A stretch of DNA of 64,000 bases, taken from the NCBI GenBank assembly GCA_021802705.1, contig JAJZRL010000003.1:14142-78141 (forward strand), read 5' to 3'. Each line of letters starts with the position of its first letter. The first letter of the stretch is position 1. The position numbers and the translations under genes are program-made. This DNA comes from a bacterium. GTDB taxonomy: Bacteria; Patescibacteriota; Minisyncoccia; Phycocordibacterales; Phycocordibacteraceae. Positions 41,982-61,424 of this stretch are shown here, piece after piece. Under the pieces are notes generated by a model that had not been told where the DNA came from, made no database searches, and saw only the letters and a program-made list of their open reading frames with translations.

Positions 41982-43241
41982 TTAATATGACTTCAGGTGC
42001 CTCGCCTTGTCATGGAAGCGGATCTTTTCAAGCGCTTTCGATTCGATCTGCCGGATGCGTTCGCGCGTGACACCGAACTCTTTTCCGACTTCTTCGAGAG
42101 TGTGGTAGATGCCGTCCATGAGGCCGTGGCGCATCTCGAGGATCTTACGCTCTTTCGGAGAAAGGTCGTTCAGGATGGAGCGCACCTGTTCCGCGAGGAT
42201 GCGCTCGGAAGACTCCTGTATAGGCGACGGGATCTTGTCGTCGGGGATGAAATCCCCGAGAGTCGACTTCTCGTCGTCGTCGGAGCCGATGGGGTTCTCG
42301 AGAGAAAGCGTGTCCTGGTTGATCTTCTCGATCTGGTAAACCTTCTCGGGCTCCACTCCCATTTCGACGGCGATCTCTTCCGGCTGGGGATCACGGCCGA
42401 GCACCTGAGCGAGACGGCGCGAGACCTGCTTGTATTTTGCGATGGTTTCCACCATATGCACAGGGATGCGGATGGTGCGGGACTGGTCTGCAAGAGCGCG
42501 CGTGATCGCCTGGCGGATCCACCAGGTCGCATAGGTTGAGAATTTGTATCCCTTTTTCCAGTCGAACTTGTCCACTGCGCGGAAAAGACCAAGATTGCCT
42601 TCCTGGATGAGGTCGAGGAGCGTGAGGTCGGGACTGCGGCCGACGTATTTCTTCGCTATAGAAACCACGAGACGGAGATTGCTGCGTGCAAGGATGTTGC
42701 GCGCTTCCGCGTCGCCTTTCTCTATGCGTTTCGCGAGCTCGCGCTCTTCGGCGGCGACAAGGAGCGGGTACTGGCCGATCTCGCGAAGATATATCTGTAT
42801 GGAATCGTAACTTGATGAGTGGCGGTCTTTGATGTTGCGCGCCGCGAGATACTCGTCAGCGGTGTCCTCGAGCATGCCGCCTTCGAGCACGTCAACGCCG
42901 GCTGCGGAAAACCGCTCGTAGAGCGATTCGAGGAAATCGACATCGTTCTCCACATGAGGGAACGATTTCAATATTTCGCTATAGGTTACATATCCGCGCT
43001 CCTTCCCCTTCTCTATGAGCTGCTCCGCCGAGAGGACCTTCTGCGATAATTCTTTCGCTTTCGCGCTTCGCACGGCGGTGCGGACAATGCGCTTCGTCCG
43101 TACGGTTTTCGCTTTTGCCGTCTTCGTCCGTGCGGCACGGACGGTTTTCGTCGCCGTCTTCTTTTTCTTAAGCGGGCGCCGTACAACGGCCTTTTTCAAG
43201 GTCTTCTGAACGCTCTTTTTCTTTTTCGCGTGCATCGTCAT
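41982..43241 (-). CDS. rpoD: RNA polymerase sigma-70 factor with Lys/Ala/Thr-rich histone-like N-terminus
   Basis: Regions 1.2-4.2 conserved ([11 protein letters not shown], rpoD box [33 protein letters not shown], region 4 HTH) after an ~80-aa K-rich tail. Confidence 0.9.
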
Positions 43242-43280
43242 ATAAAAATGAAATGATGGTGATAAAAGGGTACGGAAGTA

Positions 43281-44990
43281 TCAGCGCCCGAGCGCAGCGA
43301 GACGCGTAGAAAGCTTTGCACATGCCGCCTGGGCATCTTCGATCGCGGATGCATCCCTCCCCGTTTCGGCCATGCGCAGGGTTCCCACTGCTTGTTGATA
43401 CGCTTCGCGAACAACCGCTTCTTCAAAAGCGCGAAGAAGCTCGTCCGCAGCATCCTCGTGAGGATCCGCACCGAATGTCTGCTCCGCCATAAAGAGAGCC
43501 GACTCCGGGGGTGTGTCAAGCGGAAATTGGTGAGCTTCGGTAATTCGACAATACTCTGATTCTATGCGATGCGCAAGCGGGGTATCGGGATAGGCGTGGA
43601 AAACGGCGAGGAGCTGCTCGGAACGGATATCCCTGGAGGAGCGTGCGACGGTCGCCGGAGAGACGTCGTATCTCTGCGGTATTTTCGCGGATACCGAGCC
43701 CGACGACTTCCTCAATGATTCTCCGACCGTCTCGCTTGAAAGCCCGAGCGCGCGCGCGGTGATCTGTATGAAATGTTCGCGCTCCATCGGGCTCTGGATA
43801 GCCGAGATGAGCGGGAGCACCGTCTGTTCGACAACGCGCAAAAGCCGGTGAGGATCACGCTCGCTCTCGGTAAGCTCGGCAAGGAAAAACTCGATGATCG
43901 ATTCCGCCGAGGCTATGCAGCGTGAAAAGGATTTCGGATCGTCGGCGACGAGATCCGCGGGATCCTTCCCTTTCGGAAGCCGGGCCGCTTTGACCTGCAG
44001 TCCGTTTCGGAGCGCTAATGCGGCTGATTTCGCTGTCGCGGCAAGACCGGCCTTATCGGCGTCAAGGACAAGCATGAGGTTTCCGCTGTAACGTTTGAAT
44101 ATCGCGATATGCTTCTCGGAAAGCGCCGTTCCGGAGAGCGCGACGACGTTTGAAAATCCGGCCTGATGCGCGAGCAATACGTCCATCTGTCCTTCGACGA
44201 GTATGCCAAAACCGCGAACGCGTATCGCGTCCTTTGCGGTATCCATGCCGAAGAGAATCTCGGACTTCCTGTACAACTCCGTTTCCGGGCTGTTGAGGTA
44301 TTTTGCCGGTTCAGGCTCCGACCCTTCCGGCTCCGGCTTCGGAGAAGGTATGGTGCGGCCGGTAAATCCGACGACACGGCCGGCCGTATCGCGTATCGGA
44401 AACATGAGCCGATTGCGGAACCGGTCATAGAATGTCCCCCGTTTCCCGTCAGCTTCTTTCACGAGCCCCGCCTCCGCGAGTTCGGCTACCGTAAAGCCTT
44501 CTGATGAGAGAGCGGTGAGGAGCTCGCGCCACGCGGGCGGAGCGTAACCGATGCGCCATTGGGCGAGGGTTTCATCGCGGAGCCCTCGCTGCACGGCATA
44601 CGCGTGAGCCGGGCTTCCGGAAAGCCGTCCGGCGTACCACTCGCTCGCCCGGCTGAGCGCTTCACGCAACCGCTCGGCGTGTGAGCGGCTTGCGCTGTCG
44701 AAACCGCTCTTGAGTTCGACACCTGCCTTTTCGGCAAGGATCTTTAAGCTCCCCTTGAAATCGACTCCTTCGATCTTCTCTATGAAAGAGAATCCGTCGC
44801 CGCCAAGCCCGCAACCGAAACAGTGCCACGTGCCGCGCTCGGGACTCACGTGGAAGGACGGGGTTTTCTCCTTATGAAAAGGACAAAGCCCGCGAAGCGA
44901 CTTCCCTGCCCGCGAAAGCTTGACATACGGGCTTATGATATCCTGGATACTCAATCGCTCCTTAATCTCTGTGGCCGTGTCGGTTGCCAT
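43281..44990 (-). CDS. dnaG: DNA primase
   Basis: CHC2 zinc finger CPFHKEKTPSFHVSPERGTWHCFGCGLGGD and TOPRIM motifs (LVEGQMDVL, DADKAG). Start taken at MATDTATE; the classical dnaG-rpoD order is kept. Confidence 0.9.
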   Translation of the reverse strand: MATDTATEIKERLSIQDIISPYVKLSRAGKSLRGLCPFHKEKTPSFHVSPERGTWHCFGCGLGGDGFSFIEKIEGVDFKGSLKILAEKAGVELKSGFDSASRSHAERLREALSRASEWYAGRLSGSPAHAYAVQRGLRDETLAQWRIGYAPPAWRELLTALSSEGFTVAELAEAGLVKEADGKRGTFYDRFRNRLMFPIRDTAGRVVGFTGRTIPSPKPEPEGSEPEPAKYLNSPETELYRKSEILFGMDTAKDAIRVRGFGILVEGQMDVLLAHQAGFSNVVALSGTALSEKHIAIFKRYSGNLMLVLDADKAGLAATAKSAALALRNGLQVKAARLPKGKDPADLVADDPKSFSRCIASAESIIEFFLAELTESERDPHRLLRVVEQTVLPLISAIQSPMEREHFIQITARALGLSSETVGESLRKSSGSVSAKIPQRYDVSPATVARSSRDIRSEQLLAVFHAYPDTPLAHRIESEYCRITEAHQFPLDTPPESALFMAEQTFGADPHEDAADELLRAFEEAVVREAYQQAVGTLRMAETGRDASAIEDAQAACAKLSTRLAALGR

Positions 44991-45354
44991 CCCTTTTATT
45001 CTACCGTCAATAGAGCTTTTTCGTAATAAATGGCGTCCTCGGGGCAATAGACAACGAAATTGACATTGATATCAACTTGTTTCTCTTCAAGAAAATGCCT
45101 TACTGTACCAATCGCAATTTGTGCGGCTTCGGTTTACTGACTAGCTACGATCAAGGAATTTCTGTAGCAATTGGCGGGAACGCGTGACTCCTCACCTGCC
45201 ATTTCCCCCATAAACGGGCCCGACTGTATGAATCACGTATTTTGCAGGCAATCTGTAGCCCTTGGTGATTTTTACCTCGCCAGTCTCATACAAGGAATTG
45301 TTGGCAGCATTATTCTTGATAGTGCGACGCCGAAAGACGAGTGTCGGGGCAAAG

Positions 45355-45405: not shown

Positions 45406-49137
<3,732 letters not shown>

Positions 49138-49167
49138 AGGGATGTGAAAAGGTTGCGGATAATAACG

Positions 49168-52100
49168 TTATGCGTCCGACGTATCGGCCGGCGGCAGGTT
49201 CATAGGCTCGACATCGAGCGCGAGGCCTCGGATCTGGTTGGTAAGGACGGAGAACGACGCGGGCGTGCCGGTATGGCTTATCGTCTCGTCTTTCACGATC
49301 GCGTCGAATGCGGCCGAACGGCCCTGTATATCGTCTGATTTTATGGTGAGCATCTCGCGAAGCGTATATGCGGCGCCGTAGCCGAGAAGCGCCCATACTT
49401 CCATTTCGCCGAAGCGCTGGCCTCCGTTTTGCGCCTTCCCTCCCAAGGGCTGCTGGGTGATGAGGCTGTAGGGACCGATGGAACGCATGTGGATCTTGTC
49501 TTCCACCATGTGATGGAGCTTGAGGATGTACATGTAACCGACCGCTATCTCCTGAGCGAACGCGTCGCCCGTGCGGCCATCGTAAAGCTTCATTTTTCCG
49601 CTCCGGGAAAAACCGGCAGCCTGGAGTTCATCGCGTATCTCGTCCGCGGTCGCTCCCGCAAACGGCGGTACGATCGCCTGATAGCCGAGCGTGTGCGCGG
49701 CAAGGCCGAGATGCATCTCGAGAATCTGCCCGAGATTCATACGGGAAGGAACGCCGAGCGGGGTGAGAAGGATATCGACCGGATTGCCGTCCTTGTCATA
49801 GGGCATGTCGGCAACCGGCAGGACGCGGCTGATAACGCCCTTGTTGCCGTGGCGGCCGGCGAGCTTGTCGCCGACAGAGACGTTCCGCACCTGAGCGACC
49901 GTAACGATTATCTTCTTGATGATGCCGCTTTCGAGCTGATCGCCTTTTTCTCTCGAGAAGACGCGTACCCCGATGACGCGTCCGCGCTTCCCGCCTTCCA
50001 TGCGAAGGCTCGTGTCTTTCACGTCTTTCGCCTTATCTCCGAAAATGGAACGGAGAAGACGCTCTTCGGGCGTAAGCTGCGTTTCGCCCTTCGGGGTTAC
50101 CTTGCCGACGAGAATGTCACCCGGACGAACCTCTGCGCCGATGCGGATGACCCCTTCTTCGTCGAGATTCTTCAGCCGCAGTTCGCCGACGTTCGGTATG
50201 TCGTGCGTCGTCGTCTCAGGACCGAGCTTCGTGTCGCGGACGATGCAGTCGAAATCTTCGATATGGACCGTTGTGAATTTTGCGTCCTCGACGAGCCGTT
50301 CGGAGATGACGATAGCGTCCTCGTAATTCGCGCCGTTCCAGCTCATGAACGCTACGCGCACGTTCTGGCCCAAGGCGAGCTGTCCCTGGTCGGTCGAAGA
50401 GTTGTCGGCGAGCACGTCGCCCTTCTTCACCTTCTCGCCTACGCGTACGCTCGGTCGCTGCATGAACGCCGAGTTCTGGTTGGTTTGAGTGAGCCCTTGA
50501 AGCCGGTATTCTTTCGCCTTCTCGTCTTTGTTCTTCACGACGATTGCGCGCGCGTCGACATAGGTGACCTCGCCGGCCTCTTCGGCGAGGATGAGGCGGC
50601 CGGTGCTGCGTGCGGCATGCGCTTCAACGCCTGTCGCGACAAGGGGAGCCTCGGGGATAAGAACCGGCGTCGCCTGCTTCTGCATGTTGCTGCCCATGAG
50701 CGCGCGGTTCGCGTCGTCATGATTGACGAACGGGATCATCGACGTCGCGATAGAGAACATCTGGTATGTGGACGCGTCCATGAGCGTGACGGCCTCGCGC
50801 GCGACGATGACCGGCTCGCCTTTATGGCGCGCCTCGACGGAGTCAGGGACGATGCGACCGTCGTCATCGAGCTTGGTCGCACCGTGCGCGATGATCTCGT
50901 TCTCTTCATCGAGCGCGTTTAGATAAACGATGTCGCCGCTCGCCTTGCCGTTCTTTACCCGGACATACGGCGTTTCGATGACGCCAAAATCGTTCGTACG
51001 CGCATGCGTCGCCATGTGCAGGATAAGGCCGATATTCTGGCCCTCCGGCGTATGGATAGGACAGAGGCGTCCGTAATGAGAGGGATGGACGTCACGCACC
51101 TCGAAACCGGCGCGCTCGCGCGTAAGCCCTCCTGGGCCGAGCGCCGAGAACGTACGCATGTTTTCCAGTTCGGCAAGGATGTTCTGCTGATCCATGAACT
51201 GCGAGAGCTGGTTCGCCGTGAAGAACTCGTGGACTGATGCCTGGAAAGGACGCGGGTTCACGAGCGCCATGGGGAGCGTTGTCTCGCTCTCGATGGTCGA
51301 CATGCGATCCTGGATGTTGCGTTTCATTCGGCTCATGCCGATACGCATGCGCGACTGGAGCAGCTCGCCGACAAACCGCACGCGACGGAAGCCGAGGTGG
51401 TCGATATCGTCGGGACGCGCGGACGGATCCTCGTTCAGCGCCGTGATCTCCTTTATGATGCGTACAAAGTCCGCAAGTGAGAGCGTGCGCTTCTCGAGCG
51501 CCTTCTCTGATGTCGGAAGACCGAATCGCGCATTCAGCCGGTGCCGGCCCACCTTGCCCAGGTCATACCGTTCGGCGGAGAAAAGCGCCTGTACGAAGTT
51601 CTTCGCGTTCTCCGGAGTCGTGAGATCGCCGTCGCGCATGCGGCGGTGGATCTCGATGTACGCCTCTTCGATCGACTTCGCTTCGTCATGCACGAGCGTC
51701 GCCTGCAGTGCCGCGAGCGCGCGCGGATCGTCTTCAAAATGCTTGAGCGCCGCTTCTCTTATGCCGCCGCCGAAAACCGTGAGGAGTTCGGTAATAGGAA
51801 ACTTCCGTTTCCGATCGATCCTCACGAAAATGGCTCCGTCGGCCTCCGAGTCGATCTCGATCCAGACGCCCCGAAGCGGGATGATTTTTGCGCCGAAATA
51901 CTGTCTGCCGCGTATGATCTCGGAAACAAAGAATGCTCCGAAAGAACGGGCGAGCTGCGGCACGATGGCGCGCTCGACGCCCGAGACGATGAAAGAGCCG
52001 TGCGGCGTCATGATTGGCATGTCCGCAAGGAATAATTCTTGTGATTTCTCAGACCCGAGCGTCTTGTTGATGAGTTTGATCGAAGCTTTTATCGGCGCTT

Positions 52101-52350
52101 CATACGTGCGCATGTTTTCGCGGGCAAACCCCTCATCGTACTTCGGCTCGCCCATTTCGAGATTTTCGAAATGAAGCTCGAACTTCCTCCCGGAATAGTC
52201 GGTAATCGGCGAGAACTCTTTCAACAGCTCCTTAAAACCATCCTTGAGGAGCCAGTCGAACGAGACGCGCTGATGTCCCACGAGATCAGGAAATGACACG
52301 AGTGGTGCTCGATAAGCGCCGAACGTTTTTTGGACGAGGTTCTTATGCAT
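49168..52350 (-). CDS. rpoB: DNA-directed RNA polymerase subunit beta
   Basis: ~1060 aa with conserved beta-subunit blocks (GRHGNKGV, rifampicin-cluster region, C-terminal MLTIKSDD). The ORF-track start is a TTG; the first ATG (MHKNLVQ) is at 52350. Confidence 0.95.
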   Translation of the reverse strand: MHKNLVQKTFGAYRAPLVSFPDLVGHQRVSFDWLLKDGFKELLKEFSPITDYSGRKFELHFENLEMGEPKYDEGFARENMRTYEAPIKASIKLINKTLGSEKSQELFLADMPIMTPHGSFIVSGVERAIVPQLARSFGAFFVSEIIRGRQYFGAKIIPLRGVWIEIDSEADGAIFVRIDRKRKFPITELLTVFGGGIREAALKHFEDDPRALAALQATLVHDEAKSIEEAYIEIHRRMRDGDLTTPENAKNFVQALFSAERYDLGKVGRHRLNARFGLPTSEKALEKRTLSLADFVRIIKEITALNEDPSARPDDIDHLGFRRVRFVGELLQSRMRIGMSRMKRNIQDRMSTIESETTLPMALVNPRPFQASVHEFFTANQLSQFMDQQNILAELENMRTFSALGPGGLTRERAGFEVRDVHPSHYGRLCPIHTPEGQNIGLILHMATHARTNDFGVIETPYVRVKNGKASGDIVYLNALDEENEIIAHGATKLDDDGRIVPDSVEARHKGEPVIVAREAVTLMDASTYQMFSIATSMIPFVNHDDANRALMGSNMQKQATPVLIPEAPLVATGVEAHAARSTGRLILAEEAGEVTYVDARAIVVKNKDEKAKEYRLQGLTQTNQNSAFMQRPSVRVGEKVKKGDVLADNSSTDQGQLALGQNVRVAFMSWNGANYEDAIVISERLVEDAKFTTVHIEDFDCIVRDTKLGPETTTHDIPNVGELRLKNLDEEGVIRIGAEVRPGDILVGKVTPKGETQLTPEERLLRSIFGDKAKDVKDTSLRMEGGKRGRVIGVRVFSREKGDQLESGIIKKIIVTVAQVRNVSVGDKLAGRHGNKGVISRVLPVADMPYDKDGNPVDILLTPLGVPSRMNLGQILEMHLGLAAHTLGYQAIVPPFAGATADEIRDELQAAGFSRSGKMKLYDGRTGDAFAQEIAVGYMYILKLHHMVEDKIHMRSIGPYSLITQQPLGGKAQNGGQRFGEMEVWALLGYGAAYTLREMLTIKSDDIQGRSAAFDAIVKDETISHTGTPASFSVLTNQIRGLALDVEPMNLPPADTSDA

Positions 52351-52540
52351 GATCGTTGACGGGTGAAGCAAACCGAATAATGAATGAAAATCTTATATAA
52401 ATACAAACGCACGGACACGAATCCGCTCTCGCGTTTTTCCAGCTCACTTATATGCAAGTTGTCGCCCTCCGTGACTCACTCGTATCTGATGCCTGTAGTG
52501 TACCAGACCACCCCTCCCGAGCGCAAGCGGTTGGGGATAA

Positions 52541-53193: not shown

Positions 53194-53490
53194 TTACAGC
53201 TCGTCGACTACCTGATCGACGGTTTTCTCATGCTCGCGAGGGCTACCGACCGGCTCATTGATCTTCAGATTGACGCGAGCGCTGCTTTTCATCCCGACAA
53301 CCCTCAAGAGGATACGGAGCGCCTCGGCGGTCTTGCCGCTCTTCCCGATGATCTTGCCCATGTCGTCCGGATGCACGGTGAGCGTGAGGAGTACGCCCAT
53401 CTGATCAATGGTGCGAGTCGTCTCGACCGCTTCGGGATGATCGACAAGCGCACGCACTGCGTATTCGAGAAATGCTTGGTCTGGTTCCAT
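53194..53490 (-). CDS. KH-domain RNA-binding protein (YlqC/UPF0109-like)
   Basis: GKIIGKSGKTAEALRILL (KH GxxG loop). Conserved position between rpsP and trmD. Confidence 0.7.
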   Translation of the reverse strand: MEPDQAFLEYAVRALVDHPEAVETTRTIDQMGVLLTLTVHPDDMGKIIGKSGKTAEALRILLRVVGMKSSARVNLKINEPVGSPREHEKTVDQVVDEL

Positions 53491-53556
53491 GGTGAAGATT
53501 TTAACACTTCTGACCTCTCCTCTGTATGCGTGGAGGGGCGGGCGGCCCCTCTCCGC

Positions 53557-54000
53557 TTAAACCGCCTCGGGTTCAACCGGCACCTCTTGTTCGGCCGGAA
53601 CGGGCGCGTCGGCGGTTTCTTGCGACGCTTCCGCAGCTTCCTCTGCCGGAGCCGTTTCCGTTGCGGAAGACGCCTTTTCTGGCATAGGCGCCGGCGCCTG
53701 GGCCGCCGGCTCTTCCTTCTTTTTGAGCGGGGTCTTTTTCGGAAGAGCGTTCACTTTTTTCCCTTCGGTAATCCCCTTGCTTATAAGAAGGTTGTGGATC
53801 GAATCGGTCGGCTGGGCGCCATGAGAAATCAGCTCCTTCACGCGCGCTTCGTTCAAGGTAAGCGCCTTGCTTTTCGGATTGTAGGTGCCAAGCAGCTCGG
53901 TGATGCCGCCGGCCTTCGCCGCCCGCGCTTTTTCCAAAAGCACGATGCGAAACGCCGGATCATTGGTCCGGCCGATGCGTTGAAATCGGATCCTCAACAT
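53557..54000 (-). CDS. rpsP: 30S ribosomal protein S16 with ~65-aa Ala/Pro/Glu-rich C-terminal extension
   Basis: MLRIRFQRIGRTNDPAFRIVLLEKARA...LGTYNP matches the S16 core; low-complexity tail. Confidence 0.85.
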   Translation of the reverse strand: MLRIRFQRIGRTNDPAFRIVLLEKARAAKAGGITELLGTYNPKSKALTLNEARVKELISHGAQPTDSIHNLLISKGITEGKKVNALPKKTPLKKKEEPAAQAPAPMPEKASSATETAPAEEAAEASQETADAPVPAEQEVPVEPEAV

Positions 54001-54083
54001 GGAGGCGACTATAGCAGAAGCTTCGTAATATTGCTAGAGTAGCTATCGTGACAAGCAAACGACTCTACGAAGGACCGATAACG

Positions 54084-56458: not shown

Positions 56459-58657
56459 CTATTTCGCCACGGCGACAGCCTCGTCGAATTTGACGGAGAG
56501 GAGCTTGCTCATCCCGTCGCCGCCCATGGTAACGCCGTAGAGAATGCCGGCGCGGCTCATGGTTTCGCGATTATGGGTGATGACGATGAGCTGCGATTTC
56601 CTCGCGAGATTCTCGATCATGTCGCCATAGCGGCGGCTGTTCGCTTCGTCGAGCGCGGCATCGGTCTCATCCAGTATCAGGAAAGGTGGCGGGTTCACCT
56701 GGCTCATCGCAAAGATGAGCGCGATCGACGTAAGCGCGCGCTCCCCGCCTGAGAGCTGCATGAGAGAACGCACTTTCTTCTTCGGAAGATTGACGGTGAT
56801 TTCGATCCCCGACCGTTCTTCTCCCGTTCCGGCGGGCACGCCCTCTTCCCCCTCCTCGATATCGAGCGGTTCCGGTTCTTCAAGCGCGAGTCGCGCCGAA
56901 CCCCCGTCGAACATGAGTGTGAAGTATTCGTTGAACGACGCGTTCACTTGCGCGAGCCCGTCAGAAAAGTGCTTGGCGAGTTCGGCGTTCAGGTCGTCGA
57001 TAAGTTCGTTCAACCCCGTCGCGGATTTCGTCAGATCCTCGAGCTCTTTCGCAAAAAATGCCTCGCGTAAGGCGACCTCCTTGTGTTCTTTCTGGATGTC
57101 CTCGCCCATCCCGCCGGCTTCTTCGAGACGGATCTTCAAACGCTCGATCGCCCGGCTGCGCTCTTCCTGTGCCTGTCGGTCTTCATGAACCGGAGAGGAT
57201 AGGGGCTCATAAGAAAGCGCTTCCGCTCCGCCCACCGCAAACGCCTCGGCTTTGCCGCGTTCGAGCGCCTCTTCGCGGAGCGTCCGTTCGTGTTCGCGCG
57301 CCTCGCTTAACGAGAGTGCGCTTTCCTCATGCGCTTTCGCCTGTGCGAGCTCGAGGATGCGGCGCTGAAGCTCTTTGCCGGTCTCGTCGTGCGCGGTAAG
57401 CGCCTCCCGAGCCCGAGTAAGAGCAGATTTTGCCCGTTCGAGCCGCTCGGCAAGCGCCGTTTCTTTCGCGGCGAGCTCGGTGCGCTCGTTCTCAAGCACG
57501 TAGACGGCATGTTCTTCTTCGGAGAGGACATCGTCGGTCGGAACGATAAAACGATCGATGAACGCCCGAATCGCGGTTCCTATCGCGTGAAGCGCCGCGA
57601 GGACGGCATCGGGATTCTCTGCGTGTGCCGCCTGTTTTTGAGACTCTTCGGCGAGAGCGATAAGGTCTTCGCGAGGCACCTTTACGTACGGCTCATGCGC
57701 CGTTTTCGCGTGATGGTGTTTGGCGGCGGAAAGCGCTCCTTCGATGCGTCCGATTTCCCGCAGGAGCGGGGTTCGTTCGTTTGAGATGCTCTCGACAGCG
57801 GCTTCGGCTGCGCGCGCCGCCTCAAGGCGCTTCATGCCTTCGGCATCGGTCGTCGCGCGCTCTTCTATGAAGGAGAGTTCGGCGGCAACGGTGGCGAGAC
57901 GTTCCGCCGCTTTCCGTTTCTCTTCCGAAGCGGAGCGCTTCTCATGCTCGAGATAAGCGTCTTCGACCGCGAAATAGGTCCGCGCGAGCGTAACGAATTC
58001 TTCTCGGAGCGCACGAGAACGTTCTATTTTCTCGACCTGTCTCTCAAGAAACCGCAGGTGCGGAGCTATCTCCCGCCGGAGCGAGTTCACCTGAGCGATA
58101 TTCTCTTCGGTCTTTACGAGTTTCCGCTGCGCTTCCTGCTTTTTGAATTCGTACACCTTGAGCCCGAGAGCGTCTTCGAGCATCGCCCGGCGTTCGCGCG
58201 GCGAGGAGAGCAGGATGCGATCCGCTTCGCCCTGAGAGATGATGTGATGGCTCGTGCCGCCGATGTTCGCACCGGAGAGCAGCTCCTCGACATCGCGCAG
58301 ACGCACGCGCGACCCGTTGATGGAATACTCGCTCGTTCCGTCGCGAAAGACCGCGCGCTCGATGACGACTTCATCAAAATCGATGTTGAAAGACCGCCGG
58401 GTATTGTCGAACGCGACGGCGACCGAGGCGCGCGAAGCGCGAGGCATCGAGTGCGATCCGCCCCAGATGAGATCTTCGGTACGCTTGCCGCGCATGCTCT
58501 TCATCGACTGTTCTCCGAGCGCGAAGCGAAACGCTTCGGCGAGATTGCTTTTCCCCGAACCGTTCGGCCCCACGATAGCCGTGGTCGCGTTGCCGAAATC
58601 CAAAACCGTCTTCTTGGCGAACGATTTGAATCCGACGATCTCCAATCGTTTGAGCAT
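56459..58657 (-). CDS. smc: SMC-family chromosome-segregation ATPase, short (732 aa) variant
   Basis: N-terminal MLKRLEIVGFKSF...GPNGSGKSN (Walker A), long coiled-coil, C-terminal LSGGERALTSIAL...LILDETDAALD (signature and Walker B). About 450 aa shorter than canonical SMC. Confidence 0.75.
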   Translation of the reverse strand: MLKRLEIVGFKSFAKKTVLDFGNATTAIVGPNGSGKSNLAEAFRFALGEQSMKSMRGKRTEDLIWGGSHSMPRASRASVAVAFDNTRRSFNIDFDEVVIERAVFRDGTSEYSINGSRVRLRDVEELLSGANIGGTSHHIISQGEADRILLSSPRERRAMLEDALGLKVYEFKKQEAQRKLVKTEENIAQVNSLRREIAPHLRFLERQVEKIERSRALREEFVTLARTYFAVEDAYLEHEKRSASEEKRKAAERLATVAAELSFIEERATTDAEGMKRLEAARAAEAAVESISNERTPLLREIGRIEGALSAAKHHHAKTAHEPYVKVPREDLIALAEESQKQAAHAENPDAVLAALHAIGTAIRAFIDRFIVPTDDVLSEEEHAVYVLENERTELAAKETALAERLERAKSALTRAREALTAHDETGKELQRRILELAQAKAHEESALSLSEAREHERTLREEALERGKAEAFAVGGAEALSYEPLSSPVHEDRQAQEERSRAIERLKIRLEEAGGMGEDIQKEHKEVALREAFFAKELEDLTKSATGLNELIDDLNAELAKHFSDGLAQVNASFNEYFTLMFDGGSARLALEEPEPLDIEEGEEGVPAGTGEERSGIEITVNLPKKKVRSLMQLSGGERALTSIALIFAMSQVNPPPFLILDETDAALDEANSRRYGDMIENLARKSQLIVITHNRETMSRAGILYGVTMGGDGMSKLLSVKFDEAVAVAK

Positions 58658-58675: not shown

Positions 58676-58704
58676 ATATAAAAAGCTCCCCGTGCTTGGG
58701 GAGC
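58676..58704 (-). terminator. Terminator of the small membrane-protein gene
   Basis: AGCTCCCC-GTGCTT-GGGGAGCT followed on the minus strand by TTTTATAT. Confidence 0.6.
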
Positions 58705-58723
58705 TCGAAGGCCGCTTGGCTAT

Positions 58724-58963
58724 TCACCACACATCAACCGCTTCTGAGCACAAGAAATAAATGAGGGCAGCGATGCTGATGAAGACCATGCCGACAAGGG
58801 CGAGGATCGTTGCTAGCGTATAAATGCCGATCGACACGATAAGTACGATTCCAATCAAACAAAGTATGGTGAGGAAACCGGACACTATATCCAGGACGAG
58901 AACAACGTCAGAAGGCAAGGCTCTTTGCAGACGCGATACGCCTTTTTTCAGAAACTTTTTCAC
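58724..58963 (-). CDS. Small two-TM membrane protein (79 aa, GTG start)
   Basis: AGGAGG 8 nt upstream of a GTG start codon; two hydrophobic helices. Confidence 0.5.
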   Translation of the reverse strand: MKKFLKKGVSRLQRALPSDVVLVLDIVSGFLTILCLIGIVLIVSIGIYTLATILALVGMVFISIAALIYFLCSEAVDVW

Positions 58964-59023
58964 GACTATCCTCCTATAAGTAAGGGATTTGGAACGAGCG
59001 GGAACTCTAAAAAAATAATAAAC

Positions 59024-59713
59024 CTATAAACCTAGTTTGTCAAGAGCTGCAACGGCGGCGGCCTGCTCCGCTTCCTGTTTGCTCTGCCCTTCTCCGCGGG
59101 CCGCTTCGTCGTCGCCGACGAAAACGCCGACGGTAAAACGTTTTGCATGATCGGGTCCTTCCTCCGAAAGCGTCTTGTAGAAAGGGGTGAGGCCGCGCCT
59201 TTCTTGTACGACTTCCTGGAAACGGCTCTTGGCGTCCTGGTAGGATCCTTCCGCGATCACTTCGTCGATCTTGCCATAGAGATGTTTTGCGACAAACGCT
59301 TCGGCCGCGTCGTACCCCTGGTCGAGATAGAGAGCGCCGATAATCGCCTCGAACGCGTCTGCGAGAATGACTTCGCGCGCCCGGCCGGTGTCTTTTGCCT
59401 CACCCTTCGAAAGCAGCAGGAAGGTGTTGAGATCAAGCGAACGGGCCGCTTCGGCAAGCGAGACGGTATTCACGAGCGCGGCACGGTAGCTCGTAAGCTC
59501 GCCTTCCGGAGTAATCGGAAATTTCCTGAATAGGAAATCGGTCGCCGCTAACTCAAGGACCGCATCGCCGAGAAATTCGAGCCTCTCGTTATGGTTCCCC
59601 GCATAATCGCGGTGTTCATTCAGATATGAGCGGTGCGTAAGAGCCTCGACGAGGATGCCGAGATCGTTGAACGTGATACCGAGCCTGGAGGCGAGAGAAG
59701 CGAAGTCAGGCAT
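59024..59713 (-). CDS. rnc: Ribonuclease III
   Basis: RNase III signature ERLEFLGDAVLELAAT and a C-terminal dsRBD. Confidence 0.9.
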   Translation of the reverse strand: MPDFASLASRLGITFNDLGILVEALTHRSYLNEHRDYAGNHNERLEFLGDAVLELAATDFLFRKFPITPEGELTSYRAALVNTVSLAEAARSLDLNTFLLLSKGEAKDTGRAREVILADAFEAIIGALYLDQGYDAAEAFVAKHLYGKIDEVIAEGSYQDAKSRFQEVVQERRGLTPFYKTLSEEGPDHAKRFTVGVFVGDDEAARGEGQSKQEAEQAAAVAALDKLGL

Positions 59714-60605
59714 GAACGTGCTCGCCCGTGAGGAGGATCTGGACAGCTTGAGTCACAATGGGGAGCATATCATCATAGAAATTGAGGTCAATGATGTCCT
59801 GGAGACGGAACCATTTCGCATCGTCGAGCCCTCCGCTCTTTTTGAGCGTGATCGGCTCGAAGCTGGTTGAGGCGAGGAAAAACCAGACATGCTTGCGGAT
59901 CTTCCCCTTTTCCGGATGCGATGCGACATACTCGTTTTCTCCCACCTGGCTTTCCACGCGCGCCTCAAGACCGAGTTCCTCCTTGATGATGCGCGCAACG
60001 CCCTCTTCCGGCGTCGCGTCATGCTCGATATGGCCTTTCGAGAGAGTCCATCGCCCGAAAACATCGTGGACGAGCGCAAGGTAGTACTGTCCGTCGTGTT
60101 TGGCGTAGACGATAGCGCCACCCATCTTCTCCAAAGGAAGCTCTTCCTGCTTGAGCTTCTTGGAACCCTGCTCATCCTTCCCCGGCTCGCCAAGCTCCTT
60201 GTATACCGCTCCCAATACGCCGTTCACGAACCGCCCGGAAGAATCGCCTCCGAAAGTCTTCGCGAGCTCGATAGCCTCGTTGATGGCGACCTTGGCTGGC
60301 ACCTGCGTACGGTCGGAAAACAAGAGCTCGAAAAGACCGAGGCGCAAGATGTTGCGGTCGACCGGAGCGATGCGGTCGAGCGGCCATTCGGGAGCGGCTT
60401 TCCCGATGACGAGATCGATATCGTTTCTTTTCGCGAGAACGCCGGAGAGCAGCTGTTCCATGAACGGGTAGTCGGTGTCATCGCTGCCGAATTCCGTCCG
60501 GTTGCGCGCAAGGATAGCGGTGGCATCGTTATCAGATGCATGGGTGGTATCCCACTCGAAAAGCGTCTGTAAAACGATAGAGCGCGCCAAATGTCGATTC
60601 GCCAT
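59706..60605 (-). CDS. nusB: NusB (transcription antitermination) domain fused to C-terminal NUDIX hydrolase domain
   Basis: NusB fold residues 1-150 (ARSIVLQTLFEWD...INEAIELAKTFGGDSSGRFVNGVLGAV), then Nudix box GHIEHDATPEEGVARIIKEELGL (Gx5Ex7REUxEExGU). Overlaps the rnc start by 8 nt. Confidence 0.75.
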   Translation of the reverse strand: MANRHLARSIVLQTLFEWDTTHASDNDATAILARNRTEFGSDDTDYPFMEQLLSGVLAKRNDIDLVIGKAAPEWPLDRIAPVDRNILRLGLFELLFSDRTQVPAKVAINEAIELAKTFGGDSSGRFVNGVLGAVYKELGEPGKDEQGSKKLKQEELPLEKMGGAIVYAKHDGQYYLALVHDVFGRWTLSKGHIEHDATPEEGVARIIKEELGLEARVESQVGENEYVASHPEKGKIRKHVWFFLASTSFEPITLKKSGGLDDAKWFRLQDIIDLNFYDDMLPIVTQAVQILLTGEHVHA

Positions 60606-60693
60606 GGAAAGATCTGTGCGCGTAAGTATAGCAAATATTGCGCTGACGCAATGTTTATATGTGCAAAATAAAAAGAAAACGAGACCTGTCCGC

Positions 60694-61050
60694 TTAGGCG
60701 CCTCCGCCCATGCCCCTCCTTGCTTTAGGGAGAGAAGTACCGGTTATCTTTCCGAGAACGCCTTTCGAACCTTTCAAGCCGGCATGGACATGTTCGGCAG
60801 AAGCGGGTTCGTGCGCGTGCTGTTCATACGGAAGTTCCTGCGAAGGTCCTTTCACTTTCGGCTCATGCGAACGCTTCTCTTTGAGCGAGGAGATCTGCTT
60901 GCCACGATACATGCCGGTCGTCTCATCAAGACGGTGAGGAAGGCGAAGCGCGCCGCTTTCGGCATCCTTGACCGCCTTCACGCCCGAGAGCGCGTGATGC
61001 GACCGGCGATTGCCGGTATGACCTCTGGTATGACGCATGCGAACTGACAT
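60694..61050 (-). CDS. rpmF: 50S ribosomal protein L32 with ~60-aa basic C-terminal extension
   Basis: MSVRMRHTRGHTGNRRSHHALSGVKAV...YRGKQI matches the L32 core (RxxRRSHxAL...GxYRGK). The upstream in-frame extension is rejected. Confidence 0.7.
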   Translation of the reverse strand: MSVRMRHTRGHTGNRRSHHALSGVKAVKDAESGALRLPHRLDETTGMYRGKQISSLKEKRSHEPKVKGPSQELPYEQHAHEPASAEHVHAGLKGSKGVLGKITGTSLPKARRGMGGGA

Positions 61051-61161
61051 GACTTCACCATACCACCGATATCCGAGAAAAGCAAAGCGCCGCTTCCTGT
61101 GGAGCGGCGCAGGCACAAAGAACGACTTTCATGTGCGGTGAGCAAAACCTTTTGGGTACGT

Positions 61162-61181
61162 TTTACGTTAGTTTACGTTAG
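61162..61181. repeat. Tandem direct repeat 2 x TTTACGTTAG
   Basis: Overlaps the stop codon of 61173..61424. Confidence 0.4.
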
Positions 61182-61424
61182 TCCTTGGATGTATTCCTGG
61201 ATACGGCACTCGACGAGTTCAAGCGGTTCCCCGTTGAAATCATAGCGGGCGCAATATCCTTGTTTTTGTTTCTGAGTCCCGTGGTTTGGGCACGCTAGCT
61301 GCCCGTTCCAACGGCAAAACGGACAGAGGGAGTGTTTATCCCAATCTCCGCTTGAAGACAGGATGTCCAGAACGAATTCCGGGTTCTGCATCCCTGTAGA
61401 AAAAAAACTTTGCTCTTTTTCCAT
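61173..61424 (-). CDS. Small Cys-rich (zinc-ribbon-like) protein, 83 aa
   Basis: AGGAG RBS 7 nt upstream of the ATG. Five Cys: CPFC...CPNH...C...C. Confidence 0.5.
   Translation of the reverse strand: MEKEQSFFSTGMQNPEFVLDILSSSGDWDKHSLCPFCRWNGQLACPNHGTQKQKQGYCARYDFNGEPLELVECRIQEYIQGLT

What the first reader, a model, noticed from the sequence alone, without database searches (positions are those of the whole stretch)
59024..60605. NusB fused to a NUDIX hydrolase, translationally overlapped with RNase III
A complete NusB domain is followed by a Nudix box (GHIEHDATPEEGVARIIKEELGL). The gene overlaps rnc by 8 nt. An RppH-like RNA pyrophosphohydrolase physically fused to the rRNA antitermination factor and co-transcribed with the rRNA-processing nuclease is a coherent but, to my knowledge, unusual RNA-maturation module.
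Basis: partly seen in the sequence, partly recalled or inferred. Interest (0 to 1): 0.55.

Follow-up and report, generated by a model that had tools for sequence, protein, structure and literature searches.

The report
NusB fused to degenerate Nudix domain
In this ultra-small (Parcubacteria/Kaiserbacteria) bacterium the rRNA antitermination factor NusB carries a second domain descended from Ap4A-type Nudix hydrolases; the domain keeps its nucleotide-binding residues but has lost key catalytic ones, so it probably binds a nucleotide rather than cleaving one, and no paper found describes it.

Summary
A single uninterrupted 299-aa ORF (59706-60605, minus strand) encodes NusB (residues 1-141), a Lys/Glu-rich linker and a Nudix-fold domain (161-295). 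Its stop overlaps the rnc start by 8 nt.

The fusion is not rare. Close relatives occur in at least 273 species-level genomes. About 45 diverged 50%-identity clusters span Kaiser-, Campbell-, Sung- and Nomurabacteria. All named copies are annotated only as "NusB", and no paper was found on it.

The RppH reading is not supported.
- No RppH model matches.
- The domain is closest in sequence and predicted fold to ApnA hydrolases (Aquifex aq_158, Ndx1, NUDT2).
- The Nudix box reads G-x5-A-x7-R-I-I-K-E-E-L-G-L.
- The Glu whose E58A mutation inactivates human NUDT2 is Ile here, and is Glu in only 16 of 66 diverse family members.
- Only 12 of 66 members keep all five key box residues.
- Counterparts of NUDT2's ligand-binding residues (K42, Y82, F128, E130) are 86-98% conserved.

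My best reading is a nucleotide or 5'-polyphosphate binding module tethered to the antitermination complex, inside a conserved rpmF-nusB::nudix-rnc gene cluster. Residual hydrolase activity is not excluded.

The parts
60694..61050 (-). rpmF (ribosomal protein L32), first gene of the conserved cluster. The true start is probably the ATG at 61050 (118 aa, with a long C-terminal extension), not the GTG at 61116 that opens the longest ORF.
   Evidence: PF01783 and TIGR01031 match residues 28-76 of the long ORF, at model positions 6-54. A terminator-like hairpin at 61087-61110 lies inside the 5' end of the long ORF. rpmF is directly upstream of the fusion in 78 of 80 related loci, and also in L085 and L090.
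60606..60693 (-). rpmF-nusB intergenic region. It contains a conserved TGCTATACT (extended -10-like) and a conserved AGATCTTTCC directly before the ATG.
   Evidence: A consensus of 40 of the 78 extracted upstream regions, plus the window's, keeps TGcTAtaCT and AGaTCTTTcC, with capital letters at 80% or more. The palindrome ATTGCGTCAGCGCAAT (60637-60652) is not conserved: 1 of 78 loci.
60183..60605 (-). NusB domain (residues 1-141).
   Evidence: PF01029 at 1.1e-34 and TIGR01951 at 128 bits, above its cutoff of 88. AF2 pLDDT is about 85-98. Foldseek matches T. maritima NusB at TMt 0.85-0.87, rmsd 1.6-1.7 A, 35% identity. E93, F126 and G129 are invariant across 66 diverse fusions.
60126..60182 (-). 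Flexible, charged inter-domain linker (residues 142-160: PGKDEQGSKKLKQEELPLE).
   Evidence: pLDDT is below 50 at residues 144-150. Across 66 representatives the linker is 10-28 residues long (one is 43) and rich in K, E and D. It is the least conserved part: 38% identity to the window protein, against 57% for the NusB half and 49% for the Nudix half.
59721..60125 (-). Nudix-fold domain (residues 161-295) of the ApnA-hydrolase (NUDT2 / Ndx1 / aq_158) branch.
   Evidence: PF00293 at 8e-12. The AF2 model has pLDDT of about 90. TMt is 0.86 to 3i7u and 0.84 to 1vc8. A profile of 40 fusion Nudix halves hits 3i7u at 6e-20, CT771 at 2e-15, Ndx1 at 7e-13, C. elegans Ap4A hydrolase at 3e-12 and NUDT2 at 3e-11. 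Within the close clade the domain is 89% identical, against 86% for the NusB half.
59967..60035 (-). Degenerate Nudix box (residues 191-213), G-x5-A197-x7-R205-I206-I207-K-E209-E210-L-G212-L213. Two of the four signature Glu are missing.
   Evidence: Read directly from the sequence. Alignment to human NUDT2 gives E49->A197, E58->I206, E61->E209 and E62->E210. E58A is the inactive mutant (chains 4ick/4ijx/1xsa read ALRATQEE; PMC8616924). In the close clade position 197 is A/P/T/V/S/K and never E, and position 206 is always V or I.
59775..60050 (-). Span holding the conserved putative ligand-binding residues: W186, T187, K190, Y226, Y277 and D279 (D279 lies just below, at 59769-59771).
   Evidence: Conservation in 66 representatives under 60% identity: W186 100%, K190 98%, T187 97%, Y277 97%, Y226 91%, D279 86%. 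They align with human K42, Y82, F128 and E130. Those residues bind the P1 phosphate, stack on the adenine, or H-bond it (PMC4734340).
59706..59713 (-). 8-nt overlap between the fusion's stop (TGA, 59706-59708) and the rnc ATG (59711-59713).
   Evidence: The same -8 arrangement occurs in 33 of 80 related loci.
59024..59713 (-). rnc (RNase III: catalytic domain plus dsRBD).
   Evidence: TIGR02191 at 253 bits (cutoff 166), plus PF14622, PF00636 and PF00035. rnc is directly downstream of the fusion in 79 of 80 Kaiserbacteria loci. It is also downstream in L081, L085 and L090, whose fusions are 31-44% identical to the window protein.
58683..59043 (-). End of the unit. A promoter-like site TTGACA-17-TATTAT (59043-59015) is followed by a 79-aa hydrophobic ORF (58724-58963) and then a terminator-like hairpin (58706-58683), just before the SMC-like gene.
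   Evidence: The 79-aa ORF has no Pfam hit.

Best explanation
**What is shown.** The gene encodes a bona fide NusB. A roughly 20-residue flexible, charged linker joins its C-terminus to a Nudix-fold domain that descends from the diadenosine-polyphosphate (ApnA) hydrolase branch. The gene sits in a conserved same-strand cluster, rpmF - nusB::nudix - rnc. The Nudix half is under purifying selection as strong as the NusB half. Its catalytic and metal-binding glutamates are dispensable across the family. In this clade two are gone, including the one whose loss inactivates human NUDT2. The counterparts of the phosphate-binding Lys, the two adenine-stacking aromatic residues and the adenine-contacting acidic residue of Ap4A hydrolases are among the best-conserved positions of the domain.

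**What is inferred.** The conserved job of the domain is to bind an adenine-nucleotide polyphosphate-type ligand, not to hydrolyse one. Candidate ligands are the 5'-(p)pp or Np4-capped end of the nascent rRNA leader, or a free ApnA/ATP-type nucleotide. NusB, together with S10, clamps boxA RNA at the RNA exit of RNA polymerase. The tethered domain would therefore either hold or recognise the transcript's 5' end, or feed a nucleotide signal into rRNA antitermination. RNase III, made from the same gene cluster, would act downstream on the same transcript. Members that still have a complete box may retain hydrolysis as an ancestral extra.
For: **The fusion is real and selected.**
- The ORF is uninterrupted and both domains are detected.
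- More than 100 full-length homologues are listed at 84-100% identity out of 8000 scored hits, and 273 species genomes carry close relatives.
- About 45 full-length clusters at 50% identity exist, with 27-54% identity in the Nudix half.
- Within the close clade the Nudix half is 89% identical, against 86% for the NusB half.

**The domain comes from ApnA hydrolases.**
- The profile search gives 6e-20 to the Aquifex Ap4A hydrolase, followed by CT771, Ndx1, the C. elegans enzyme and NUDT2.
- TMt is 0.86 and 0.84 to those folds.

**Catalytic residues are relaxed.**
- In 66 representatives under 60% identity, the E58-equivalent is Glu in 16, the E61-equivalent in 35, the E62-equivalent in 50 and the E49-equivalent in 41. 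Arg at the R57-equivalent position is kept in 40.
- All five of these residues are kept in only 12 of 66, and none in 8 of 66.
- On an NJ tree built from the NusB half alone, the state of the E58-equivalent needs at least 11 changes.
- In one clade Pfam no longer detects NUDIX at all.
- The position aligned with human E110 is Gly in 62 of 66 and never Glu, whereas the stand-alone relatives P0224 and P0210 have Glu there.

**The binding pocket is kept.**
- K190 is 98% conserved, Y277 97%, Y226 91%, D279 86% and W186 100%.
- These align with human K42, F128, Y82, E130 and W38.
- The ligand roles of the first four human residues are described in PMC4734340.

**Precedents exist.**
- E58A inactivates NUDT2 (PMC8616924).
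- CF Im25 is a Nudix protein of an RNA-processing complex that lacks two box Glu. It binds Ap4A with Kd 2.4 uM and does not hydrolyse it (PMC2425470).

**The gene cluster is conserved whatever the box state.** L085 has a full box, L090 has 0 of 5, and rnc follows in 79 of 80 Kaiserbacteria loci.
Against: - No binding or activity data exist for any member.
- The window protein still has R205, E209 and E210. E209 or E210 corresponds to the inferred catalytic base of C. elegans Ap4A hydrolase and E. coli RppH (PMC5526541). Reduced or altered hydrolysis therefore cannot be excluded for this clade.
- The conserved Trp and Tyr residues could be kept for fold stability rather than ligand contact. I could not inspect the model coordinates.
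- The Nudix half is acidic (net charge -6 here, mean -4.3). That argues against non-specific RNA-backbone binding.
- The NJ tree from 141 residues is noisy and probably inflates the count of independent losses.
- The rpmF...rnc-smc order resembles the Bacillus arrangement (my own knowledge). Adjacency to rnc may therefore be partly inherited synteny rather than functional coupling.
- I could not check whether this is the only nusB in the genome.
Confidence: 0.45

Rival explanations
1. The Nudix half is an active pyrophosphohydrolase delivered to nascent RNA. Tethered by NusB at the RNA exit, it would convert the 5'-ppp/pp end or an Np4A cap of the rRNA leader to a monophosphate. That would license 5'-end-dependent trimming alongside RNase III.
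For: - ApnA hydrolases are the Nudix branch from which RNA 5'-end enzymes arise. NUDT2 removes 5' phosphates from PPP-RNA (PMC8616924). E. coli RppH was first described as an Ap5A hydrolase, and ApnA and decapping clades are neighbours (PMC5389931).
- Dcp2 is the next-best profile hit at 2e-9.
- 12 of 66 family members keep all five key box residues.
- The window protein keeps R205, E209 and E210, which include the inferred general-base position (PMC5526541).
- The gene sits in a cluster with rnc, and RNase R and RNase HII are nearby.
Against: - The Glu equivalent to NUDT2 E58, whose Ala mutant is inactive, is Ile or Val in every one of 120 close relatives. It is Glu in only 16 of 66 diverse members.
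- 8 of 66 members have none of the five residues, and 16 of 66 have Lys at the last Glu, yet they keep the fusion and the rnc linkage. Hydrolysis therefore cannot be the family's conserved function.
- No RppH model matches.
- BdRppH is a poorer structural match, TMt 0.64, than the ApnA hydrolases.
Confidence: 0.25
2. The Nudix half is a structural or protein-protein adaptor with no small ligand. The ex-enzyme fold would serve as an extra subunit of the antitermination complex, as the inositol-monophosphatase-fold protein SuhB does in the E. coli rrnTAC (my own knowledge). It might compensate for factors missing in reduced Parcubacteria genomes.
For: - Catalytic residues decay while the fold and a set of surface-type residues are conserved.
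- Non-enzymatic Nudix domains that mediate protein interactions are documented (PMC5389931; CF Im25, PMC2425470).
- The domain is acidic. That would suit binding to basic partners such as ribosomal proteins.
Against: The best-conserved residues are precisely the counterparts of the phosphate- and adenine-binding residues of Ap4A hydrolases (PMC4734340). A pure protein-interface role does not predict that pattern. No partner was identified. The presence or absence of SuhB could not be checked.
Confidence: 0.15
3. The fusion is incidental. A housekeeping ApnA or nucleotide hydrolase happens to be fused to NusB, giving co-expression only, and has no role in antitermination.
For: Stand-alone relatives with canonical boxes are ordinary small Nudix proteins in unrelated contexts (P0210 and P0224). 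Gene fusions are frequent in reduced genomes (my own knowledge).
Against: A housekeeping hydrolase should keep its catalytic Glu residues, but most members have lost them. The fusion persists across deep divergence, down to about 28% overall identity, with a linker of conserved length range.
Confidence: 0.1
4. The fusion is an artefact. A frameshift, misassembly or read-through would have joined two separate genes.
For: None found.
Against: The same uninterrupted architecture occurs in hundreds of independent assemblies from NCBI, JGI, ENA and Logan. The AF2 model gives two well-folded domains.
Confidence: 0.01

Closest known systems
NusB (E. coli, T. maritima, M. tuberculosis), the rRNA/lambda antitermination factor that binds boxA RNA together with S10 (NusE)
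   Same: The N-terminal 141 residues score above the NCBIfam equivalog cutoff. They superpose on T. maritima NusB at rmsd 1.6-1.7 A. The core motif VAINEAIELAK.FG...FVNGVLG is conserved.
   Different: Studied NusB proteins are single-domain, about 130-160 aa. This one carries about 160 extra C-terminal residues that form a second folded domain.
ApnA (Ap4A/Ap6A) Nudix hydrolases: Aquifex aq_158 (3I7U), T. thermophilus Ndx1 (1VC8), Chlamydia CT771, C. elegans Ap4A hydrolase, human NUDT2
   Same: These are the best sequence-profile and fold matches. They share the W-T-x-x-K-G motif. The counterparts of K42, Y82, F128 and E130 are conserved.
   Different: - The E58-equivalent is Ile, the E49-equivalent is Ala, and the E110-equivalent is Gly.
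- Most family members have lost further box residues.
- The domain is fused to NusB rather than free-standing.
RppH (E. coli NudH, Bdellovibrio BdRppH), the RNA 5'-pyrophosphohydrolase
   Same: Both have a Nudix fold. RppH historically came from the ApnA-hydrolase group, and both have a link to RNA metabolism.
   Different: There is no match to RppH models. The BdRppH match is local and covers only the box, with TMt 0.64. The metal-binding triad is incomplete.
CF Im25 / NUDT21, a non-catalytic Nudix subunit of the mammalian pre-mRNA 3'-processing factor
   Same: It is a Nudix fold inside an RNA-processing or transcription-coupled complex. Two box glutamates are replaced by hydrophobic residues (L124, I128). 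It binds Ap4A and ATP without hydrolysis (PMC2425470). This is the nearest functional analogy.
   Different: No detectable specific homology: it does not appear among the hits. It is eukaryotic, dimeric, binds UGUA RNA, and is not fused to a transcription factor.
NrtR / AraR, transcription regulators with a Nudix sensor domain
   Same: A mostly non-catalytic Nudix domain acts as an effector sensor and is fused to a nucleic-acid-binding domain. The NrtR Nudix domain gave the lowest Foldseek E-value, 1.8e-9.
   Different: The ligand there is ADP-ribose and the partner is a winged-helix DNA-binding domain. TMt is only 0.68 and the sequence-profile E-value is about 1e-4. The domain order is reversed.
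RsmB/Sun, in which a NusB-like domain is fused to a 16S rRNA m5C methyltransferase
   Same: It is the known example of a NusB-fold domain fused to an enzyme fold that acts on rRNA. RsmB models give weak hits to the NusB half.
   Different: The partner domain and the order are different. The scores are far below the RsmB cutoffs (55 against 319 bits).
SuhB in the E. coli rRNA antitermination complex (my own knowledge, not tested here)
   Same: It is an enzyme-fold protein that serves in rRNA antitermination independently of its catalytic activity.
   Different: It has an unrelated fold (inositol monophosphatase) and is a separate polypeptide. No evidence here links the two.

Membership tests
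NusB (TIGR01951 / PF01029) | Score above the curated family cutoffs | tested here: met
   TIGR01951 scores 128.1 bits against a cutoff of 88.35. PF01029 scores 120.1 bits against 23.1.
NusB (TIGR01951 / PF01029) | All-helical NusB fold superposable on solved NusB | tested here: met
   The AF2 model has seven helices in residues 4-138 with pLDDT of about 85-98. Foldseek matches T. maritima NusB at TMt 0.85-0.87 and rmsd 1.6-1.7 A, and M. tuberculosis NusB at TMt 0.83-0.84.
NusB (TIGR01951 / PF01029) | Binds S10 (NusE) and boxA RNA and promotes rRNA antitermination | not testable with these tools
   The window holds no rRNA operon. No biochemical data exist.
NusB (TIGR01951 / PF01029) | Is the genome's only nusB, i.e. 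the functional orthologue | not tested
Nudix superfamily (PF00293) | Alpha/beta/alpha Nudix fold and a Pfam score above cutoff | tested here: met
   PF00293 scores 45.8 bits against 21.1. TMt is 0.86 to 3i7u.
Nudix superfamily (PF00293) | Complete Nudix box GX5EX7REUXEEXGU | tested here: not met
   The box here is G-x5-A-x7-R-I-I-K-E-E-L-G-L. Two of the four Glu are absent. All five key residues are kept in only 12 of 66 family representatives.
RppH (RNA pyrophosphohydrolase) | Sequence membership in RppH family models | tested here: not met
   No RppH model appears among the NCBIfam hits at E<=0.01. The Nudix-half hits were MutT/NudG-type and isopentenyl-diphosphate isomerase models, all far below their cutoffs.
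RppH (RNA pyrophosphohydrolase) | Closest solved relatives are RppH enzymes | tested here: not met
   BdRppH 3ees scores E=9e-5 over 36 residues of the box, against 6e-20 full-length for the Ap4A hydrolase. TMt is 0.64 against 0.86.
RppH (RNA pyrophosphohydrolase) | Intact RExxEE metal-binding triad | tested here: not met
   The motif is R-I-I-K-E-E. The RExxEE motif binds the required metal (PMC5526541).
RppH (RNA pyrophosphohydrolase) | Removes pyrophosphate or phosphate from 5'-tri- or diphosphorylated RNA | not testable with these tools
   This needs an enzyme assay.
ApnA hydrolase branch (NUDT2 / Ndx1 / aq_158 / CT771) | Best sequence-profile and fold similarity | tested here: met
   with the values given above.
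ApnA hydrolase branch (NUDT2 / Ndx1 / aq_158 / CT771) | Substrate-binding residues (human K42, Y82, F128, E130) | tested here: met
   They align with K190, Y226, Y277 and D279. These are 98%, 91%, 97% and 86% conserved in 66 representatives. Their roles are taken from PMC4734340.
ApnA hydrolase branch (NUDT2 / Ndx1 / aq_158 / CT771) | Catalytic Glu (human E58; the E58A mutant is inactive) | tested here: not met
   E58 aligns with I206. The position is V or I in all 120 close relatives.
ApnA hydrolase branch (NUDT2 / Ndx1 / aq_158 / CT771) | Hydrolyses Ap4A-Ap6A | not testable with these tools
   This needs an enzyme assay.
Non-catalytic Nudix proteins (CF Im25, NrtR type), considered as an analogy only | Loss of box glutamates with retention of the fold and of a ligand pocket | tested here: met
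   The precedent is PMC2425470.
Non-catalytic Nudix proteins (CF Im25, NrtR type), considered as an analogy only | Specific homology to CF Im25 or NrtR | tested here: not met
   CF Im25 is absent from all hit lists. NrtR and AraR are only weak matches: E of about 1e-4 and TMt 0.68.

The most novel reading that the evidence does not exclude
The Nudix half is a catalytically disabled 'reader' of adenine-nucleotide polyphosphates that evolution has wired into the rRNA antitermination complex through NusB. Its ligand would be either a free alarmone such as Ap4A, or the 5'-ppp/Np4A-capped end of the nascent rRNA leader. This would give Parcubacteria a nucleotide-sensing input to rRNA synthesis, or a 5'-end tether for rRNA processing, that no studied bacterium has. 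It would be a bacterial counterpart of CF Im25.
Probability: 0.3. Interest if true: 0.8.

Novelty: new variant of a known kind. Interest (0 to 1): 0.58.

Why it matters
NusB is a universal, well-studied bacterial transcription factor, and every characterised example is a single domain. A major uncultivated lineage, Parcubacteria (class Paceibacteria), appears to have replaced it with a two-domain protein. The second domain is an ex-hydrolase that keeps its nucleotide pocket.

If the inference holds, three things follow.
- It would add a new component to the rRNA antitermination machinery.
- It would provide a bacterial example of a non-catalytic Nudix 'reader' in RNA biogenesis.
- It would give a concrete, testable link between dinucleoside-polyphosphate or 5'-end chemistry and rRNA synthesis in organisms with minimal genomes.

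Practically, thousands of database entries labelled simply 'NusB' hide this architecture. In some clades Pfam no longer recognises the second domain at all.

Tried and rejected
- **Single-sequence AF2** gave an unusable Nudix half, with pLDDT of about 30-50. I repeated it with a 43-sequence alignment and obtained pLDDT 89.8.
- **afdb50 fold search** was intended to obtain organism names. The library was not available.
- **The listing of cluster members** on 10 diverged fusions returned no taxonomy. Taxon names came instead from a second homologue search seeded with the distant member P0240.
- **'Stand-alone' close relatives of the Nudix half** were examined as possible split nusB / nudix gene pairs.
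  - P0135 is a contig-end truncation of a fusion and is followed by rnc.
  - P0156 sits in a phage-like context.
  - P0210 sits in an unrelated metabolic context.
  - P0175 is on a contig too short to judge.
  - No split version was found.
- **The intergenic palindrome ATTGCGTCAGCGCAAT** was considered as a regulatory site. It is not conserved: 1 of 78 loci.
- **Net charge** was examined as a test of RNA binding. The Nudix half is acidic, which is uninformative or mildly against backbone binding.
- **A second Nudix gene in the window:** none found.
- **Literature:** seven searches combining NusB, Nudix, fusion, Patescibacteria, CPR and C-terminal extension found no description of the fusion. 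The Nudix-clan survey PMC5389931 does not mention NusB.
- **The RppH reading** is rejected as a membership claim for the reasons in the membership table. It is kept as a rival mechanism.
Full report
**1. The observation**

The minus strand carries one uninterrupted ORF at 59706-60605 (299 aa, ATG start). It is followed by a 229-aa ORF at 59024-59713. The two share 8 nt: the downstream ATG (59713-59711) lies inside the last codons ...CAT GCC TGA of the upstream gene.

- Pfam finds NusB (residues 7-136, E=1.1e-34) and NUDIX (residues 176-275, E=8e-12, above the gathering score) in the first ORF.
- Pfam finds RNase III catalytic and dsRBD domains in the second ORF.
- NCBIfam places the first above the nusB equivalog cutoff (128 against 88 bits) and the second above the RNase III cutoff.

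There is no frameshift. More than 100 full-length homologues are listed at 84-100% identity, all with both Pfam domains. A scan of one genome per species found 273 genomes with a close relative.

**2. How common the fusion is, and where it occurs**

Named sources are Kaiserbacteria, Paceibacteria/Paceibacterota, Minisyncoccia/Minisyncoccota, Parcubacteria and Nomurabacteria. I searched 1.84 billion 50%-identity representatives with the Nudix half alone. That gave 158 hits at E<=1e-10.

I classified the hits with phmmer. About 45 are full-length NusB+Nudix proteins with only 27-54% identity in the Nudix half. Many more are contig-end fragments of such proteins. The weaker hits are about 140-aa stand-alone Nudix proteins with canonical boxes.

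A second homologue search seeded with a distant member (P0240) returned 1891 proteins at E<=1e-10. These include Campbellbacteria and Sungbacteria entries. In that member's nearest relatives the precomputed Pfam annotation lists only NusB. Direct scans confirm that NUDIX falls below threshold in P0240 and is undetected in P0254.

Every named entry is called just 'NusB'. The architecture is therefore the ordinary NusB of a large part of the Parcubacteria, but it is hidden by annotation. Seven literature searches found no description. The Nudix-clan survey of Srouji et al. does not mention NusB.

**3. Anatomy**

AF2 run with a 43-sequence alignment gives a confident model: mean pLDDT 89.8, with only residues 144-150 and the last four below 50.

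- Residues 1-141 form a seven-helix NusB. It superposes on T. maritima NusB at TMt 0.85-0.87 and rmsd 1.6-1.7 A.
- Residues 142-160 are a Lys/Glu/Asp-rich linker. Its length varies from 10 to 28 residues across the family, and it is the least conserved segment.
- Residues 161-295 form a Nudix fold.

The best structural matches to the Nudix half, by target-normalised TM-score, are:

| Structure | TMt |
|---|---|
| Aquifex Ap4A hydrolase 3I7U | 0.86 (rmsd 2.4 A) |
| T. thermophilus Ap6A hydrolase Ndx1 | 0.84 |
| C. elegans and human Ap4A hydrolases, CT771 | 0.71-0.74 |
| BdRppH | 0.64 |

A profile built from 40 fusion Nudix halves gives the same ranking against PDB sequences:

| Target | E-value |
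|---|---|
| 3I7U | 6e-20 |
| CT771 | 2e-15 |
| Ndx1 | 7e-13 |
| C. elegans Ap4A hydrolase | 3e-12 |
| NUDT2 | 3e-11 |
| Dcp2 | 2e-9 |
| BdRppH | 9e-5, over the box only |

No RppH model matches in NCBIfam. The domain therefore descends from the ApnA-hydrolase branch, not from RppH.

**4. The Nudix box is degenerate, and the family does not protect it**

The box reads G191-x5-A197-x7-R205-I206-I207-K-E209-E210-L-G212-L213.

I confirmed that my copy of the human NUDT2 sequence is identical to chain 3U53. The E58A mutant chains read ALRATQEE, so E58 is the Glu of 'RE'. In a MAFFT alignment the human residues map as follows:

| Human NUDT2 | Window protein |
|---|---|
| E49 | A197 |
| R57 | R205 |
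| E58 | I206 |
| E61 | E209 |
| E62 | E210 |
| E110 | G259 |

NUDT2 E58A is inactive on PPP-RNA (PMC8616924). The RExxEE motif binds the required metal, and the three glutamates superpose among the DHNTPase, the Ap4A hydrolase and RppH (PMC5526541).

Within the close clade of 120 sequences, position 197 is A, P, T, V, S or K and never E. Position 206 is always V or I.

Across 66 representatives sharing less than 60% identity:

| Canonical residue (human numbering) | Retained |
|---|---|
| E58 | 16 of 66 |
| E61 | 35 of 66 |
| E62 | 50 of 66 (the other 16 are Lys) |
| E49 | 41 of 66 |
| R57 | 40 of 66 |
| All five | 12 of 66 |
| None of the five | 8 of 66 |

The position aligned with human E110 is Gly in 62 of 66 and never Glu. 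The stand-alone relatives P0224 and P0210 have Glu there.

On a neighbour-joining tree built from the NusB half only, the state of the E58-equivalent needs at least 11 changes and the all-five state needs at least 10. The tree is noisy, but complete and decayed boxes are clearly interspersed.

**5. What is conserved instead**

The best-conserved positions of the Nudix half are W186 (100%), K190 (98%), T187 and Y277 (97%), G163, Y/F242, G259 and W265 (94%), F183 and Y226 (91%) and D279 (86%).

In the alignment to NUDT2 these positions map as K190=K42, Y226=Y82, Y277=F128, D279=E130 and W186=W38. PMC4734340 describes the ligand roles:

- K42 and Y82 coordinate the P1 phosphate site.
- The adenine ring stacks between the conserved loop-5 Tyr and a second Tyr or Phe, which is F128 in human.
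- E130 hydrogen-bonds the adenine amino group.

The HMM alignment to the C. elegans enzyme independently puts Y277 on Y121 and K190 on K36. The nucleotide and phosphate pocket of an Ap4A hydrolase is therefore protected while the catalytic apparatus is not.

The domain is not decaying as a whole. In the close clade it is 89% identical, against 86% for the NusB half.

**6. Genomic context**

- rnc lies directly downstream in 79 of 80 Kaiserbacteria loci. rpmF lies directly upstream in 78 of 80.
- The exact 8-nt overlap occurs in 33 of 80 loci. Most others have gaps of -1 to about 160 nt, and six have 0.5-1.5 kb inserted.
- The same rpmF-fusion-rnc order is found around distant members whatever their box state: P0138 (full box, L085), P0254 (0 of 5, L090), and the truncated P0135 (L081).
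- It is absent around the most distant member examined, P0264 (L082).

In the window:

- A terminator-like hairpin at 61087-61110 precedes the likely true rpmF start at 61050.
- A TTGACA-17-TATTAT site overlaps the end of rnc.
- A strong terminator-like hairpin (58683-58706) follows a 79-aa hydrophobic ORF.
- An extended -10-like TGCTATACT and the sequence AGATCTTTCC directly before the fusion's ATG are conserved in related loci. The fusion and rnc may therefore also have their own promoter.

The wider window carries rpoB, rpoC, rpoD, dnaG, trmD, RNase R, a short SMC, RNase HII and dnaE. It has no second Nudix gene and no rRNA gene.

From my own knowledge, rpmF ... rnc-smc resembles the Bacillus order. 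Part of the linkage to rnc may therefore be inherited synteny.

**7. Interpretation**

Shown:
- A real, selected NusB::Nudix fusion.
- An ApnA-hydrolase origin for the second domain.
- Loss of two key Glu in this clade.
- Repeated loss of box residues across the family.
- Retention of the counterparts of the ligand-binding residues.
- A conserved gene cluster with rnc.

Inferred: the function shared by the family cannot be hydrolysis, because many members lack the residues for it. It most likely involves binding an adenine-nucleotide polyphosphate-type ligand in the old active site.

NusB with S10 holds boxA RNA at the RNA exit of RNA polymerase (established knowledge). The tethered domain could therefore recognise or hold the 5'-phosphorylated or Np4-capped end of the leader. 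Alternatively it could sense a free nucleotide such as Ap4A.

The closest functional precedent is CF Im25. It is a Nudix subunit of an RNA-processing factor in which two box Glu are replaced by Leu and Ile. It binds Ap4A at 2.4 uM without hydrolysing it (PMC2425470). NrtR-type regulators offer the same logic, with a Nudix sensor joined to a nucleic-acid-binding domain.

I give this reading 0.45.

It is kept alive by four points.
- R205, E209 and E210 are retained, including the inferred base position (PMC5526541).
- 12 of 66 members keep all five key box residues.
- NUDT2 acts on PPP-RNA (PMC8616924).
- ApnA hydrolases and decapping enzymes are evolutionary neighbours (PMC5389931).

A ligand-free scaffold role, analogous to SuhB, gets 0.15. 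An incidental fusion gets 0.1. An artefact is excluded.

**8. Novelty and verdict**

This is not a member of the RppH family. It is a NusB, and a derived member of the ApnA-hydrolase branch of the Nudix superfamily that probably no longer hydrolyses. The combination is widespread in one lineage and unreported in the literature I could search.

I rate it a new variant of a known kind, with interest 0.58. A transcription or CPR specialist would be moderately surprised. The hypothesis is directly testable with recombinant proteins that span the natural series from a complete box to none of its key residues.

Noticed in passing
window 60694-61116 (-): The L32 (rpmF) ORF is 140 aa from its first start, or 118 aa from the likely true ATG at 61050. 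Pfam's L32 model is only 56 positions long. The protein has a roughly 60-residue C-terminal extension rich in His, Pro, Lys and Gly. L32 is 106 aa in L090 and 69 aa in L085.
   Followed up: partly
window 60606-60640 (-), and 78 of the related loci L001-L080: A conserved TGCTATACT (extended -10-like) lies about 19 nt upstream of the fusion's ATG, and a conserved AGATCTTTCC abuts the ATG. There is no obvious Shine-Dalgarno sequence. The UCUUU core faintly recalls boxA, which raises the untested idea that NusB autoregulates its own leader.
   Followed up: partly
window 58724-58963 (-): A 79-aa strongly hydrophobic ORF with no Pfam hit sits between rnc and the SMC-like gene. It is bracketed by its own near-consensus promoter-like site (TTGACA-17-TATTAT, 59043-59015) and a 9-bp-stem terminator-like hairpin (58706-58683).
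   Followed up: no
window 56459-58657 (-): The SMC-like protein is only 732 aa. The SMC_N head profile spans residues 1-717, which implies a much shortened coiled coil compared with typical bacterial SMC of about 1200 aa (the typical length is my own knowledge).
   Followed up: no
window 61173-61424 (-): An 83-aa Cys-rich ORF (CPFCRW...CPNHG...C...C) lies between RNase HII and rpmF. It has no Pfam hit and may be a small zinc-binding protein.
   Followed up: no
window 53230-54042 (+): A 270-aa ORF between trmD and RNase R has no Pfam match at E<=1e-4.
   Followed up: no
L003, L052, L059, L072, L075, L079: In six of 80 Kaiserbacteria loci, 0.5-1.5 kb separates the fusion from rnc. This suggests a gene inserted inside the otherwise tight pair.
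   Followed up: no
P0206, P0225, P0147, P0212: Other architectures use the same Nudix subtype.
- P0206 is a 577-aa protein with about 316 unannotated N-terminal residues ahead of NusB+Nudix.
- P0225 combines Sigma70_r4, a DnaA_C-type HTH and Nudix (379 aa).
- P0212 is a tandem double Nudix.
- P0147 is a fusion with a C-terminal tail that looks like a Rho_N/SAP-type motif. Pfam did not report that motif.
   Followed up: partly
L084 4001-4453: P0156, a 150-aa stand-alone relative of the Nudix half with a canonical box, sits among phage-like genes: an integrase, a DNA methylase and a Phage_rep_O-like gene.
   Followed up: no
window 45406-52371 (-) and 41982-45047 (-): rpoB-rpoC and dnaG-rpoD lie within 15 kb of the fusion. 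With RNase R, RNase HII, trmD and dnaE, the window is a dense information-processing region. It contains one tRNA-Asn (28-100) and no rRNA gene.
   Followed up: partly
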